From Escherichia coli (GTDB lineage: Bacteria > Pseudomonadota > Gammaproteobacteria > Enterobacterales > Enterobacteriaceae): 49,226 nucleotides of DNA. Positions 12,001 through 18,000 of the stretch are shown here, one piece after another. A program made the position numbers. The number at the start of each line of letters is the position of its first letter. The stretch's first letter is position 1. The stretch lies in assembly GCF_003334765.1 (NCBI RefSeq), contig NZ_QOWT01000030.1. The stretch is one strand, 5' to 3'.

Positions 12001-15000
12001 GTGTAAACAGGTCATCCGCCCGGAGCAAACCGCCGGAGCGTGCTACCCTGCCACCATGGATACACAAGCAAAGCGTGCCTTCTATGATAACTTCGGCCAC
12101 GACGAGGTACTGGCGACCCGCATAGATACGACGATTCGCTATACCAAAAGGGCAGAGTGGATTGGCGATCGTTTTAAAGAACGGGAAATTGCCAACGCAT
12201 TACGTGAAGAGACCGCCAGCTATAATATTGATATTGATGAGGTGATAGCGCTTGCCCGTCAGCAGAAGGAATATCACTGATGCCAATCATGCAAATAGGC
12301 TCGTTACACTTGCTGGTCAACCGTAAGGCGATTAAGAATCTGCATATCAGCGTGCTGCCGCCTGATGGCAAAGTCCGCGTTTCAGCGCCGGAACATATGA
12401 CAGAGACGGCGATTCGTATGGCGGTTGCTTCACGCTTTCGCTGGATCAGAAAACAGCAGCAGGATTTCGCCAGACAGCCTCGTCAATCAGAGAGGGAAAT
12501 GGTCAGCGGAGAGTGCCACTATCTTTGGGGCCGAAGATATCGCCTACTTGTGATTGAGCGTCACGGGCGTCACGAAGTAAAAGTTGCGGGAAATAATAAG
12601 CTCCAGCTTTATGTTCAACCGGGAACCCGTGATGAAAATAAGGCATTGGCGTTAAATGAATTTTATCGACATGAACTAAAACAGCAGGTGGCTAAGCTTC
12701 TACCTGAATGGCAGGACCGAATCGGTGTTCCCCTAACATTCTGGGGCATCAAAAAGATGAAAACCTTTTGGGGCACCTGTAACACTACAACAAAACGAAT
12801 CTGGCTCAATCTGGAGCTAATTAAGAAGCCGCCGGAGTGTCTGGAGTATATTCTGGTGCATGAACTGGTTCATCTTCTGGAACGTCACCATAATGCTCGC
12901 TTCCGGTTGCATATGGATCGGTTTATTCCTGACTGGCGTGAGCGTCGGGATTTGTTAAATAATATGCCGTTAGCGTTTGAGGCATGGGAGTATTGATTGA
13001 GCCTGTAACTGTTTTTTGTCCATAAATTAACCTTCATTTGATGCTGGATTGAACATATCAAAATCAGACAATTACACAAATCTATGTACAGGCTCAACTC
13101 CTGCCATGGAATGTGGTTCTCACCAATAAATAAGCGTCAATACGGTGCTCCGTTGACGCTTACCATTGTGGTTGTTGTGCGACAGATATTGCTATTCGGC
13201 CCATATCCCAGATAAAACCCGCCAGCTCACGTGCAACAGCAACAATTGTAATATTGACATTCTTTCCTTTGGCCTGAAGTTTTCGATACCTCTTACAAAG
13301 CCTGAGTTGAGCATCCCATGCTCTGTCAATGACGGGGCAGGGTAAATTTTCCTGCCTTTTTTGTATTGCCGGACTGATGCGTGCCGGATGCCGGTAACTC
13401 CACGCAGCCTCGACCAATAGCTTTCTGGCATAGCTGTTTCCGGCTTTGGTAATGCTGCCCTGATGTCTGCTTGCGTATTCCGCTCTATTCGATCACGGAT
13501 TGGCATCGAAGTTCGATCAGCGATTCGCATCCATTCGATCAACCGGGAACTTAACTTTTTCTACCGCTTTTTAACTCGTTTTTTCGCTGCTTTCCACTGT
13601 CGGGGGATTTTTCCTCAGGGACTCTCCCTGAAGGACCACTCTGTGTGAGTTATGTACCAGTCTGTCCAGGATGGCATCTGCTGTTGTTGGGTTCTCCATC
13701 AGACCATGCCATTTATCTACCGGGAACTGGCTTACCACTATCGTGCTGCTTTGTCCGTAACGATCCTCTGTGATCTCCAGAAGGTCATTACACTGGGCGT
13801 TACTTAACTGTTCCAGCCCCAGATCGTCCAGGATTAGAACCTGTATTTTTTGCAACTGTTTCAGATATTTCAGCCAACTGCCATCAACACGTCCCTGAGC
13901 CAACTGTTCCAGTAATCGCCCGGTTCTACAGTACCGGACGCTGTATTTCTGTCGACATGCCTGTTCGCCCAGCGCATTGGCTATCCAGCTCTTACCGCAT
14001 CCTGTCGGACCGGTTATCAGTAGGTTTTTCCTGTGGATTATGTAGTGGCCGTTCAGCAGTTCCCTCATCTGTTCAGCCCGCAGACCTCTTGAGGCCGGAT
14101 AACGCAGCCCTTCCGGTGTTGCCTGATATTTCAGGCAGGCATTTTTTCTCAACCGTGCCACACGACTGTTTTCTCTGCTCAGAAGCTCGTCATCAACCAG
14201 CAGTGTCAGCCTTTCCTCGAACGACAGTTCGTCGTAAGTCTGAGGCGTTTCCCGTTGCCGTATCAGGCTCCCGGCCATCGCCGGGAGTTTCAGTTGGGTC
14301 AGTTTGTTTAACAGATTATCACTCATACGGTTGTTCCTTCTGTCAGTGGTAGTAGCCAGGACCACGCAGGTTTTCATGCTCTGAAGCATATGCCGGATGT
14401 TGTTCGCCCTGGCGGGATAACGGAAGCTCAACGTTATCCCGATGATGACGCAGCAGATTGTCGATAAAGCGTCTGTCCGGGGCGTTATAGTGCAGGGCAA
14501 CGTAACAGGCCTTTTCCAGCCGTTCCGGGCCGTATTTTTTCTGAAGTGCCGCAGACCCAGGACTGCACGGTAAGCCAGCTCCGGATGGGGTTTGGCTTTC
14601 AGCATGGATTCAACCACCCGGCCTGTGGACGGACCTGTACGGTTTCCCTGCTCGATAAGGCGTTCCGGTGTCCATGTCCCATGCCGCCGGTGGCGTTCTG
14701 GCATGTGAAGCGGATTGGTTGTGTGTTTATATTCATGTGTGCTGCGCGGATGTTGCGCCACACACTGCCCCTTGTGCCAGAGCTGTACCACCGACTGCCC
14801 CACCTTCAGTGACAGACGCTGACCGACCAGTTCGTGTGGAACGGAGTACCAGTGACGGGCATATTCAACGTGGTAGTCAGGGCCAACCTTCACGGCTTTG
14901 TATTCCGTGTATTCATAAGGCTCCAGAGGCAGCGGAGAGAGTGCTGGTGCATCCAGCATGCGGAAGCGTTCTGCGCGGGTTTGATTACCGTATCCCTTCA

Positions 15001-18000
15001 TTGGTCGGTTATTCATGTCCGTCAGCAACTCCCGAAGGCGTGCATTCAGCGCCCTGAGCGTGTGGAAGGTTTCATTACGGATGCGGGCAAGAAGCCATCG
15101 CTCGACGATGAGGACGCCGTTTTCTGCTTTTGGTTTATCTTTAGGTTTGCGCGGGCGGGCCGGGATAATAACCGTGCCATAGTGCTCAGCCAGCGCCTGA
15201 TAACTGTCGTTGATGACAGGCTCATAGCGATCGGCTTTTTTCACTGCGCTTCTGAGGTTATCGGGGATGAGCAGCTTCGGTACGCCGCCCAGGAAGGTCA
15301 GGCAACGGCTGTGGGCATTTAACCATGACATCATGTCCTGACCTTCGCACGCTTCAACATAGGTATAGTTGGACGCCCCCATTACAGCCACGAAGATTGC
15401 CACGCGGCGTATCTCTCCGGTGTCCGGATTAATAACAGGGACCGTAGGACCACAGAAGTCGATAAAGAGCTTTTCGCCAGCACGATGCTCCTGTCGCATG
15501 GAGAGGCGTCGCGTTTTTTTCCACTTCCGGTAGCAACGGCAGAAGTGTGAGTATCCCATCGCTTTGTCACCCGCCTGTGCCTTGTATTCCATCCACAACA
15601 GTTGGCGCGTCACGCCAGGTTTTCTCATTTCCGTATCGAAGTACAGCATGTCAGGCATAACAAGCTCTGACGCAGAGGTGTCTTGTAAGGTTAGTTTTCA
15701 GACGGACAATGAAATGAGGATATGCGATAAATTTCAGTCAAAGATCCATAAAACAGACATATTGTTATTCAGTGGTGAACAGTCCATTCCGGAGACGGAA
15801 TATCTTGTTAAGGCTGTATATTATACTGGCTGTAAACAACATGGCCACCAAGGACCATGTTGTTTACAGCATACCCTTGTTGCAAAAGAATCCCCGTCAG
15901 AACAGCACTGAGTAGTTCAGACCAAAGGTTCGGCCCCGGCCTTTGTAGTCGTACAGTGAAGCAGGGCCGTAACCCGGGCTGTAGTACAGAGGTGCACGCT
16001 GTCCCCAGACAGTGGTATAGTCACGGTCGAAGAGGTTCTCAACGCTGAAGCTGAGTGTTCCCACCGGAAGCAGCCAACTACTGATAAAATCGACGGTAGT
16101 GTAACCATTAATATCGTTACCCTCTGCATCGCTTACGTCGAAAGAAGTGGTGCTCTGCACACGCAGACTCCACGGTTCCGGCGCCCAGCTAATGTAAGCT
16201 GTCGCTTTCGATGGACTTGATTCCTTCACGTCATATTTTTGCCATTGACCGTTCACTTTCGACTCGGTTTTCAGCACATTGAAGTTCACACCGGTACTCC
16301 AGTCAGTATCCGGGATCAGGTAGTCCACCGCACCTTCCACGCCGTAAATACGGCGCCTGTCGTCCTTCACACTGATGGTCAGATCTTTATTCCTTTCCAC
16401 GCTCTTATTGGAAAGCGAGTAATATGCTGCGATTTGAGTCCGCAGGTTGTCACCGGTAAAGCGCCAGCCCAGTTCATAAGAATCGACTTTCACGCCTTCC
16501 AGCTTACTGTCGCTGACGTTCACGCTCTTTGTCAGGGGAAGATGGCCGTTCACTGCTGCACCATAGATGCCGCGACCATAATATTTCCCCGGATCCGGCA
16601 ATGCCACCCCCTGGGAAAAATTGAACCATGCCTGCTGACGTTCGGTGATGTGCATCAGCAGACCAGCATTGAACAGAAAGTTATCGTAATCTACCGAACC
16701 ACCAGGAATGGCGTCGGCAGATATCGCCTTCCCGGCAGCAATCTTCTGTTGCTGCGTGTAGTCGATAAAATCATCTACCCTGTTCTCAGTATACTGATAG
16801 CGTACGCCACCGCTGACGGTAAAAATATCATTAATGTCATAGCTGGATTGCAGGAAGGCCGCCAGATTGGTGATGTCATATGACGGATAGCGCCCGGTGG
16901 TGTAAATCTTATGGTTGTTCAGCCCTCCGGAAGCACTTGCCTGAGCCAGATCGAAGAACATCTGGTTGGAGGTAAAGCGCTCATGCTCAGCATCCAGCCC
17001 CCAGGTGATTTGCCAGCCGTCCATCAGTTGGCTGTTCAGAGTCAGTTTCATGCCGTACTGGTCGGTATCCTGCTGTGACGAGGAGAAAGCCGTCGCCTGT
17101 TTATTCGCATTTACCGTCGGGAACGGGTAGAACCGCAACGACTCATCGCGGTAGTAAACCTGACCGACCAGTTCCTGTCTCAGGAAATCACTGTCAGAGT
17201 ACTGCAGGCTGATCAAATGCCGCTCAGTGCCGGGAATGCGGTCAGAATTCAGCCCCTTACTGACGTATGGTGTGCTGCTCCCGCTGATGGCGGAAAAGCC
17301 TTTCCCGAGATTAAGCCCGTAATTGTCGTCCCCCTGACTTTTATAGTACTGCGTTATCAGTTGAAGCTGCCGGGATTCATCGATGTTCAGCGTACCGGTT
17401 CCCATGATGTCCAGCCGATTGGAGTGCTGCAGGCCGGTCTGGGTGTTATCAAGCAGGGTGGCATCGCCGTTACCGTCAAACCAGCCGCCAAATTTCTGAT
17501 ATGCCACGGAAAGACGTCCGGAGATATGGTCATTTCCGCCGGAGACAGCACCGGCAATGCGCTCATCGTGATCTTTACTGCTGTTAAAGCCACTTTTTGT
17601 GCCAGCCTCAAACTCCATCATGGTTTCCGGCTGGCCTTTTTTGGTCACGATGTTGATCAACCCTCCGGTACTCCCGCCACCGTACAGGGCCGTCGCGCCG
17701 GAGATCACTTCAATATGGTCGATATTAAAAGGATCGACAGAGTCCAGTTGTCGGCTGTCGGAACGTGAAGAGTTGAGGCGCACACCGTCAATCAGGACAA
17801 CCAGCGGGCGGCCACGCATGTTCATACCGTAGTTGGTTCGGCTCTGGCTGCTGACATCAAGGCCGGGGATTAACTGAACCAGTGCGTCTTTCAGCTCTTT
17901 ACCGCCCTGAATCTGCTGCTCCAGTTCGGCATTTTCGATAACCCAGGTGGTTTGCGCCATCTCCGCTACAGTTCGATTGCTGCGGCTGGCAGACACTATG

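What the first reader, a model, noticed from the sequence alone, without database searches (positions are those of the whole stretch)
13571..15658. IS21-family element: fused istA-istB ORF caused by a 1-nt homopolymer frameshift
The 695-aa ORF is not a natural fusion. After the 6-nt run at 14535-14540, the native IstA frame reads to ...HENLRGPGYYH and stops 14 nt before an AAGGAA site and the istB ATG. One extra A restores this. The IstA N-terminal HTH region is also missing, and the element abuts the aerobactin operon, so it is a decayed IS that may once have mobilised or delimited that locus.
Basis: seen in the sequence. Interest (0 to 1): 0.35.

Follow-up and report, generated by a model that had tools for sequence, protein, structure and literature searches.

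The report
Broken ISSso4 insertion sequence beside aerobactin
This is an ordinary dead copy of a catalogued jumping gene (ISSso4, IS21 family) that has lost its left end and carries a real, inherited one-base deletion that fuses its two genes into one long reading frame.

Summary
The 695-aa ORF at 13571-15658 (- strand) exists. It lies in a remnant of ISSso4 (IS21 family) spanning window 13472-15684. Over that span the remnant matches intact copies at 2213 of 2214 positions. The only difference is one missing base.

The A6 run (14535-14540) is also A6 in every intact copy. The missing base is a T (- strand) between 14551 and 14550, 10 nt upstream, and it is not in a homopolymer.

The deletion is not a sequencing error. 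Eight independent assemblies encode the identical fused protein in the same gene context. Two sister loci share the same truncation junction but keep the T and encode separate 438-aa and 251-aa products. So truncation came first and the frameshift followed.

The element lacks IS positions 1-424: the left inverted repeat, the leader and 64 istA codons including HTH-1. It therefore cannot move on its own.

Its broken internal end, not a terminus, abuts the iutA tail. In 977 E. coli genomes an IS3-family end sits at that same nucleotide. Mobilisation of aerobactin by ISSso4 is therefore not supported.

This is already known biology of low interest.

The parts
13472..15684 (-). ISSso4 (IS21 family) remnant, equal to IS positions 425-2638 of the 2638-bp element. 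The left 424 bp are absent.
   Evidence: The remnant matches intact copies at 2213/2214 positions. Full length and ends were defined from L002 and L003, which carry target-site duplications. No other ISSso4 piece occurs in the window.
13472..13543 (-). Intact right terminal inverted repeat. It ends ...GGAATACGCA-3' and contains repeated TTCGATCAnnGATTSGCATC motifs, the presumed IstA binding sites.
   Evidence: The terminus is identical in L001, L002, L003 and the window, and the flanks diverge immediately after the CA.
13571..14326 (-). istB, which is intact. It encodes 251 aa identical to WP_001282649.1. In this copy it is read as residues 445-695 of the fused ORF.
   Evidence: IstB_IS21 PF01695 gives E=1e-58. 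NF038214 scores 248 bits.
14334..14345 (-). Native istA stop codon TGA (14345-14343) and the AAGGAA ribosome-binding site of istB (14339-14334). Both are intact.
14343..15684 (-). 5'-truncated istA. Codons 65-511 of the native gene are retained, with a -1 frameshift at codon 443.
   Evidence: The remnant matches transpos_IS21 profile positions 58-293 only, whereas the intact protein matches positions 2-293.
14550..14551 (-). Site of the 1-nt deletion, the real lesion. The intact sequence CTGCTGGC has become CTGCGGC. Everything downstream shifts into the istB frame.
   Evidence: The deletion is absent from all 589 places in complete E. coli genomes.
14535..14540 (-). It has wild-type length and is not the lesion.
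   Evidence: The alignment to the intact copy shows AGAAAAAATAC in both sequences.
13571..15658 (-). Chimeric 695-aa ORF. Residues 1-369 are IstA 74-442. Residues 370-444 are 75 out-of-frame residues. Residues 445-695 are IstB 1-251.
15682..15684 (-). Junction between the iutA tail and the internal ISSso4 breakpoint. The three bases AAG are shared by both parental sequences.
   Evidence: The same junction is present in L006-L015.
15685..15896 (-). Downstream tail of iutA, belonging to the chromosomal aerobactin module, with an 18-bp-stem hairpin at 15829-15870. It is not part of the IS.
   Evidence: The tail is 100% identical in 977 E. coli genomes as far as 15682. The hairpin fold has z = -4.8.
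13096..13471 (-). 5'-truncated ISSso6 (IS110 family) fragment that abuts the ISSso4 right end.
   Evidence: Matching features in other genomes are annotated 'IS110-like element ISSso6 family transposase'. A C-terminal transposase ORF lies at 13160-13417.

Best explanation
The locus is an immobile, decayed copy of the insertion sequence ISSso4 (IS21 family).

An intact 2638-bp ISSso4 first lost its left 424 bp. That removed the left inverted repeat with its IstA-binding repeats, the leader, and istA codons 1-64, which include the first helix-turn-helix. The loss came from a deletion or rearrangement that joined IS position about 425 to the sequence just downstream of iutA through a 3-nt AAG overlap.

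Later, in one sub-lineage (Escherichia sp. 4_1_40B and relatives), a single T was deleted in istA codon 443. This shifts the reading frame by one. The new frame happens to be open for 75 codons and is the istB frame, so gene callers see one 695-aa ORF.

The remnant cannot transpose by itself. It has one end only and no functional transposase. It most likely has no function and is a scar at the join between the aerobactin module and a type I restriction/DarTG module.

Shown: identity of the element, its extent, the exact lesion, the order of the two events, and inheritance of the deletion. Inferred: the mechanism of the truncation and the lack of function.
For: - Alignment to intact ISSso4 gives 2213/2214 identities with one gap at 14550|14551.
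- Intact relatives have separate istA (511 aa) and istB (251 aa).
- The full element and its ends were defined from copies with 6-7 bp target duplications. The window retains positions 425-2638 only, and no left-end sequence occurs elsewhere in the window.
- The exact fused protein is encoded in 8 independent assemblies with the same neighbours and is listed in 47 blocks of the collection. It is deposited as EIG71393.1 from Escherichia sp. 4_1_40B.
- Sister loci L014 and L015 have the identical iutA-tail/ISSso4 junction but the wild-type T and two separate genes. They differ in the remnant only by this indel and one substitution.
- No copy in 241 complete E. coli genomes shares the deletion.
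- Domain content: rve, beta-barrel and IstB are present. transpos_IS21 profile positions 1-57 are missing.
- ISSso4 IstA residue 73 aligns to IS5376 IstA residue 56. In IS5376, HTH-1 is residues 1-39 and HTH-2 is residues 55-104 (PMC10122671). So HTH-1 is lost and HTH-2 is kept.
Against: - Nothing contradicts the identification.
- Lack of function is inferred, not shown. istB with its ribosome-binding site is intact, and the remnant lies in the same orientation 212 nt downstream of iutA, so read-through transcription is possible.
- The remnant is otherwise identical to active copies, so there has been too little time for decay to prove neutrality.
- No direct comparison with the ISfinder reference entry was possible. 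The ISSso4 name rests on NCBI PGAP annotations of matching copies.
Confidence: 0.93

Rival explanations
1. The frameshift is a sequencing or assembly error in a homopolymer, and the genome really carries separate truncated istA and istB genes.
For: Single-base indels are a common error class. A sister lineage with the un-shifted sequence exists.
Against: The missing base is not in a homopolymer. The identical fused protein and context occur in 8 independent assemblies from different projects. One of those contigs was seen in 20 or more samples.
Confidence: 0.02
2. The fused IstA(deltaHTH-1, deltaC-terminus)-IstB protein is made, for example by read-through from the iron-regulated iutA transcript. 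It then acts in trans as an inhibitor or modulator of intact ISSso4 copies, by analogy with N-terminally truncated transposase inhibitors such as Tn5 Inh.
For: The ORF is open for 695 codons. It keeps HTH-2, the DDE domain, the beta-barrel that contacts IstB (PMC11208146) and a complete IstB. It lies on the same strand as iutA, and no T-tract terminator lies between them.
Against: - There is no Shine-Dalgarno sequence before the ATG at 15658.
- No promoter signal exceeds chance: 2 were found against 2.2 expected.
- The 75-residue linker is out-of-frame sequence.
- The fusion occurs in one narrow lineage only, and its sister lineage lacks it.
- There is no variation that could show selection.
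Confidence: 0.03
3. ISSso4 brought in or mobilised the aerobactin operon, for example as one arm of a composite transposon, and the remnant marks the transposon boundary.
For: The remnant directly abuts the aerobactin module. An ISSso4-like element also lies downstream of iutA on a ColV-type plasmid.
Against: - The end facing iutA is an internal breakpoint, not an inverted repeat. The intact right end points away from the operon.
- No second ISSso4 copy occurs in the 49-kb window.
- In 977 E. coli genomes the same module ends at the same nucleotide against an IS3-family end with no ISSso4 present.
- On the plasmid, the ISSso4-like element is a separate insertion into IS1 with its own target duplication.
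Confidence: 0.04

Closest known systems
ISSso4 (IS21 family; first described in Shigella sonnei, e.g. the copies on pINV)
   Same: The remnant is identical at 2213/2214 positions over IS positions 425-2638 to copies annotated ISSso4 in E. coli 357900 and S. sonnei pINV. The IstB protein is identical, and the right inverted repeat and terminal repeats are the same.
   Different: It lacks positions 1-424: the left inverted repeat, the leader and istA codons 1-64. It also has a 1-nt deletion in istA codon 443 that fuses the frames. The copy is one-ended and cannot be autonomous.
IS5376 / IS21 IstA-IstB transposition system (PDB 8B4H, 8Q4D)
   Same: The domain order is the same: HTH-1, HTH-2, DDE, beta-barrel and a C-terminal extension in IstA, then an AAA+ IstB. 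IstA residues 73-373 align to IS5376 IstA 56-349 at E = 1e-13 (PMC10122671; PMC11208146).
   Different: The relationship is distant. ISSso4 IstA has 511 aa against 400 aa. In the window copy HTH-1 and the last 69 residues are gone.
Sister locus with the same truncation but no frameshift (L014, GCA_002461335.1; L015)
   Same: The iutA-tail/ISSso4 junction, the right-end junction (L014) and the neighbouring genes are the same.
   Different: It keeps the T at the lesion site, so it encodes separate 438-aa deltaIstA and 251-aa IstB products. It has one further substitution, at window 13916.

Membership tests
IS21 family insertion sequence (ISSso4) | An istA transposase gene (HTH plus DDE) that passes the curated family threshold | tested here: met
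   NF033546 transpos_IS21 scores 267 bits against a cut-off of 160, but only profile positions 58-293 are matched. rve and Mu-transpos_C_2 are found. The gene is truncated and frameshifted.
IS21 family insertion sequence (ISSso4) | An istB AAA+ helper ATPase gene immediately downstream of istA | tested here: met
   NF038214 IS21_help_AAA scores 248 bits against a cut-off of 200. The 251 aa are identical to WP_001282649.1.
IS21 family insertion sequence (ISSso4) | Two terminal inverted repeats (5'-TG...CA-3') carrying multiple terminal repeats | tested here: not met
   The right end is present and intact at 13472-13543. The left end is absent from the locus and from the whole window. The copy is therefore a remnant of a member, not a complete element.
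IS21 family insertion sequence (ISSso4) | A target-site duplication flanking the element (6-7 bp in intact relatives) | tested here: inconclusive
   Intact copies show CTCAGGC (L002) and CCTGCT (L003). The feature cannot be assessed here because the left flank has been lost.
IS21 family insertion sequence (ISSso4) | Near-identity to the named element ISSso4 | tested here: met
   The remnant matches copies that NCBI PGAP annotates as 'IS21-like element ISSso4 family' at 2213/2214 positions. The ISfinder reference itself was not available.
Natural single-polypeptide IstA-IstB fusion | The fusion is the conserved arrangement in intact, mobile copies | tested here: not met
   None of 589 places in 241 complete E. 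coli genomes has the deletion. All intact copies examined have two genes. The sister locus has two genes.

The most novel reading that the evidence does not exclude
The chimeric protein lacks HTH-1 but keeps HTH-2, the DDE domain, the IstB-docking beta-barrel and a complete IstB. It might be expressed by read-through from the Fur-regulated aerobactin operon and act as a trans-dominant inhibitor of intact ISSso4 copies. That would be an iron-responsive brake on transposition that arose by accident. Separately, the truncation junction lies at the exact nucleotide where an IS3-family end sits in 977 E. coli genomes, with a 3-nt microhomology. This fits IS-excision-enhancer-type excision with flanking deletion (PMC9943667). 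Such an event would have welded the aerobactin module to a restriction/DarTG defence module.
Probability: 0.03. Interest if true: 0.4.

Novelty: already known. Interest (0 to 1): 0.08.

Why it matters
It matters little beyond annotation. The 695-aa 'hypothetical protein' deposited for this lineage (EIG71393.1) should be annotated as an ISSso4 pseudogene: a 5'-truncated, frameshifted istA followed by an intact istB.

The remnant is a usable lineage marker. The truncation junction and the later T deletion are two nested, unique events.

It also shows that the aerobactin module in this lineage was joined to a type I restriction/DarTG island at a breakpoint created by insertion sequences. The case illustrates that frame analysis alone can place a frameshift in the nearest homopolymer when the true lesion lies 10 nt away.

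Tried and rejected
- I searched the window for the missing left end of ISSso4 and found none.
- I searched complete E. coli genomes for the whole arrangement (window 12900-16400). No record covered at least 80% of it, so the source lineage is not among the 5,426 complete genomes.
- I first took L001 2106 as the left end of the IS. Comparison with L002 and L003, using their target duplications, showed that the L001 copy itself lacks the first 29 nt. The true length is 2638 bp.
- I briefly read L016-L021 as further copies truncated at the same point. They are not. They continue upstream with ISSso4 sequence and are broken near the istA start by other events. They appeared only because gene callers chose Met74 as the start.
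- Pfam finds no HTH family in the intact IstA N-terminus. The HTH assignment therefore rests on the NCBIfam profile positions, the IS66-TnpA-like N-terminal match and the IS5376 structure paper.
- The promoter and terminator scan gave nothing above chance on the - strand upstream of the ORF.
- I did not scan the metagenome or genome collections with DNA patterns. The exact-protein look-ups had already answered the question.
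Full report
**Observation.** The window has a 695-aa ORF at 13571..15658 on the - strand. Megablast of window 13400-15900 finds near-full matches in 295 E. coli records and 231 plasmid records. These come from Escherichia, Shigella, Salmonella and others, and those listed are annotated 'IS21-like element ISSso4 family transposase' (istA) plus 'helper ATPase IstB'. The homology runs from window 15684 to 13472.

**The lesion.** Alignment to an intact copy (E. coli 357900, L001 2501-4714) gives 2213/2214 identities with one gap. The gap is a missing T on the - strand between window 14551 and 14550. The intact sequence reads GGTCTGCTGGCAC and the window reads GGTCTGC-GGCAC. 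The true lesion lies 10 nt upstream and is not in a homopolymer. Adding an A to the run would restore the downstream frame but leave RHFR in place of the native LALQ. The native istA stop (TGA, 14345-14343), the AAGGAA site (14339-14334) and the istB ATG (14326-14324) are all intact.

**Anatomy of the ORF.**
- Intact IstA has 511 aa and IstB has 251 aa.
- Fusion residues 1-369 equal IstA 74-442.
- Residues 370-444 are 75 residues of out-of-frame sequence.
- Residues 445-695 equal IstB 1-251 without any change.
- Pfam finds rve, Mu-transpos_C_2 (the beta-barrel) and IstB_IS21.
- NCBIfam transpos_IS21 matches profile positions 58-293 in the window protein, against 2-293 in the intact protein. 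Both the IstA and IstB models pass their curated cut-offs.
- ISSso4 IstA 73-373 aligns to IS5376 IstA 56-349 (PDB 8B4H, 8Q4D). In IS5376, HTH-1 is residues 1-39, HTH-2 is 55-104 and the beta-barrel is 300-355 (PMC10122671). The window copy has therefore lost HTH-1 and the linker and kept HTH-2, the DDE domain and the barrel.
- The frameshift removes the last 69 residues, which form the flexible C-terminal extension.

**Ends of the element.** Two copies define a 2638-bp element with TG...CA termini. They are L002 (S. sonnei pINV, target duplication CTCAGGC) and L003 (inserted in IS1, target duplication CCTGCT). The left end carries at least four GATCRnnnnTTGGCAT repeats and the right end carries related repeats. 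The window retains positions 425-2638. The right inverted repeat (13472-13543) is intact and ends ...GGAATACGCA. The left 424 bp are absent from the locus and from the entire window. These comprise the left inverted repeat, a 231-nt leader and 193 nt of istA. A one-ended element without a working transposase cannot transpose autonomously. This follows from established knowledge of IS21 and from PMC10122671, in which an IstA tetramer synapses two ends.

**Is the deletion real, and when did it happen?** An exact-sequence look-up finds the identical 695-aa protein in 47 blocks of the collection. In the eight places shown, from different projects, the neighbours are the same: iucB-iucC-iucD-iutA on one side, and an M48 peptidase, HsdR, DarG and DarT on the other where the contig reaches that far. 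All eight carry the junction and the mutant site. The protein is deposited as EIG71393.1, a hypothetical protein of Escherichia sp. 4_1_40B. I then predicted the product of the same truncated gene without the frameshift (IstA 74-511, 438 aa) and looked it up. Two loci, L014 (GCA_002461335.1) and L015, have the same iutA-tail/ISSso4 junction and neighbours but the wild-type T, with separate 438-aa and 251-aa genes. Within the remnant they differ from the window only by this indel and one substitution. So the truncation came first and the T deletion arose later in a sub-lineage. None of 589 ISSso4 places in 241 complete E. coli genomes has the deletion, so it is not a recurrent hotspot.

**Relation to aerobactin.** iutA ends at 15897 and the IS homology starts at 15684, both on the - strand. 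The end facing iutA is an internal breakpoint of the IS. The junction reads ...CCTTACAAG|ACACCTCTG, and the AAG is present in both parental sequences. In 977 E. coli genomes, including STEC O26, O111 and O103, the iutA tail is 100% identical up to that same AAG. It is then followed by an IS3-family end, TGAACCGCCCCGGG.... A copy of that IS piece lies in the window at 26335-26593, upstream of shiF-iucA. Two independent breakpoints within 3 nt of each other are unlikely by chance. I suggest, as inference only, that an IS3-family element once sat there. It would then have been lost together with flanking DNA reaching into ISSso4, and the break repaired on the AAG microhomology. [quoted passage not shown] The reverse order, in which the window form is ancestral and the IS3 element inserted later, is not excluded. 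Either way, nothing indicates that ISSso4 mobilised the operon. Its only intact end points away from the operon and abuts a 5'-truncated ISSso6. The ISSso4-like element downstream of iutA on a ColV-type plasmid is a separate insertion into IS1.

**Expression.** The IS's own upstream region is missing. No Shine-Dalgarno sequence precedes the ATG at 15658. Promoter-like matches do not exceed chance. A strong hairpin follows iutA at 15829-15870 (z = -4.8) but has no T tract, so read-through from iutA cannot be excluded. A functional role for the chimera, for example as a trans-dominant inhibitor, is possible in principle but has no support. I rate it at about 3%.

**Verdict.** This is a decayed, immobile remnant of a catalogued insertion sequence. 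The interpretation of a decayed IS and a non-native fusion is right. The homopolymer mechanism and the suggested role in mobilising aerobactin are not supported. This is already known biology of low interest.

Noticed in passing
window 7446-9166 (+), within about 3656-12996: A DarT/DarG toxin-antitoxin pair (218 aa DarT, 359 aa macrodomain DarG) sits inside a type I restriction-modification operon, between the specificity subunit and hsdR. An M48/YgjP-like peptidase follows at 12280-12996. The same arrangement is annotated in E. coli O157:H7 LSU61.
   Followed up: partly
window 15682-15684 and 26335-26593; L004 6219-6478: In 977 E. coli genomes the iutA tail is followed, at the exact nucleotide where the ISSso4 remnant starts here, by a 259-bp IS3-family right end (TGAACCGCCCCGGG...). 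A copy of this piece lies in the window on the other side of the aerobactin operon in the same orientation. In those genomes direct repeats of this IS end therefore flank shiF-iucABCD-iutA.
   Followed up: partly
window 13471-43023 versus L005 (E. coli O157:H7 LSU61): LSU61 is collinear with the window but lacks about 29.5 kb, comprising the ISSso4 remnant, the aerobactin operon and more. One deletion endpoint lies 1-2 nt outside the ISSso4 right terminus. Window 40400-43400 is contiguous in 550 other genomes, so LSU61 is the deleted form.
   Followed up: partly
window 13096-13471 (-): This is a 5'-truncated ISSso6 (IS110 family) fragment with an 85-aa C-terminal transposase ORF at 13160-13417. 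The ISSso4 right end is embedded in it, which suggests that ISSso4 originally inserted into ISSso6.
   Followed up: partly
window 15829-15870 (-): A perfect 18-bp-stem hairpin lies 27 nt after the iutA stop (MFE of the 111-nt stretch -41 kcal/mol, z = -4.8) and has no following T tract. It is conserved with the chromosomal aerobactin module. The ColV-plasmid homology ends at 15855, inside the hairpin.
   Followed up: partly
L015 6119/6120 (window 13444-13540): One sister locus has a further 97-bp deletion that removes most of the ISSso4 right inverted repeat. This shows continuing erosion of the remnant.
   Followed up: no
L001 2077-2106 equivalent (E. coli 357900): This ISSso4 copy is annotated as intact, with complete istA and istB, but it lacks the first 29 nt of the left inverted repeat. 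It is probably immobile as well.
   Followed up: partly
L016 1594-1700; L017 39-150: Other ISSso4 copies are interrupted within the first codons of istA by DNA whose end resembles the ISSso6 3' end (68 nt, 95.6% identity, opposite orientation). This may indicate a preferred IS110-family target near the istA start.
   Followed up: no
window 46164-48254 (+): A 696-aa ORF corresponds to the region annotated in LSU61 as the bifunctional siderophore receptor/adhesin Iha. The island therefore carries a second iron-uptake receptor besides IutA.
   Followed up: no
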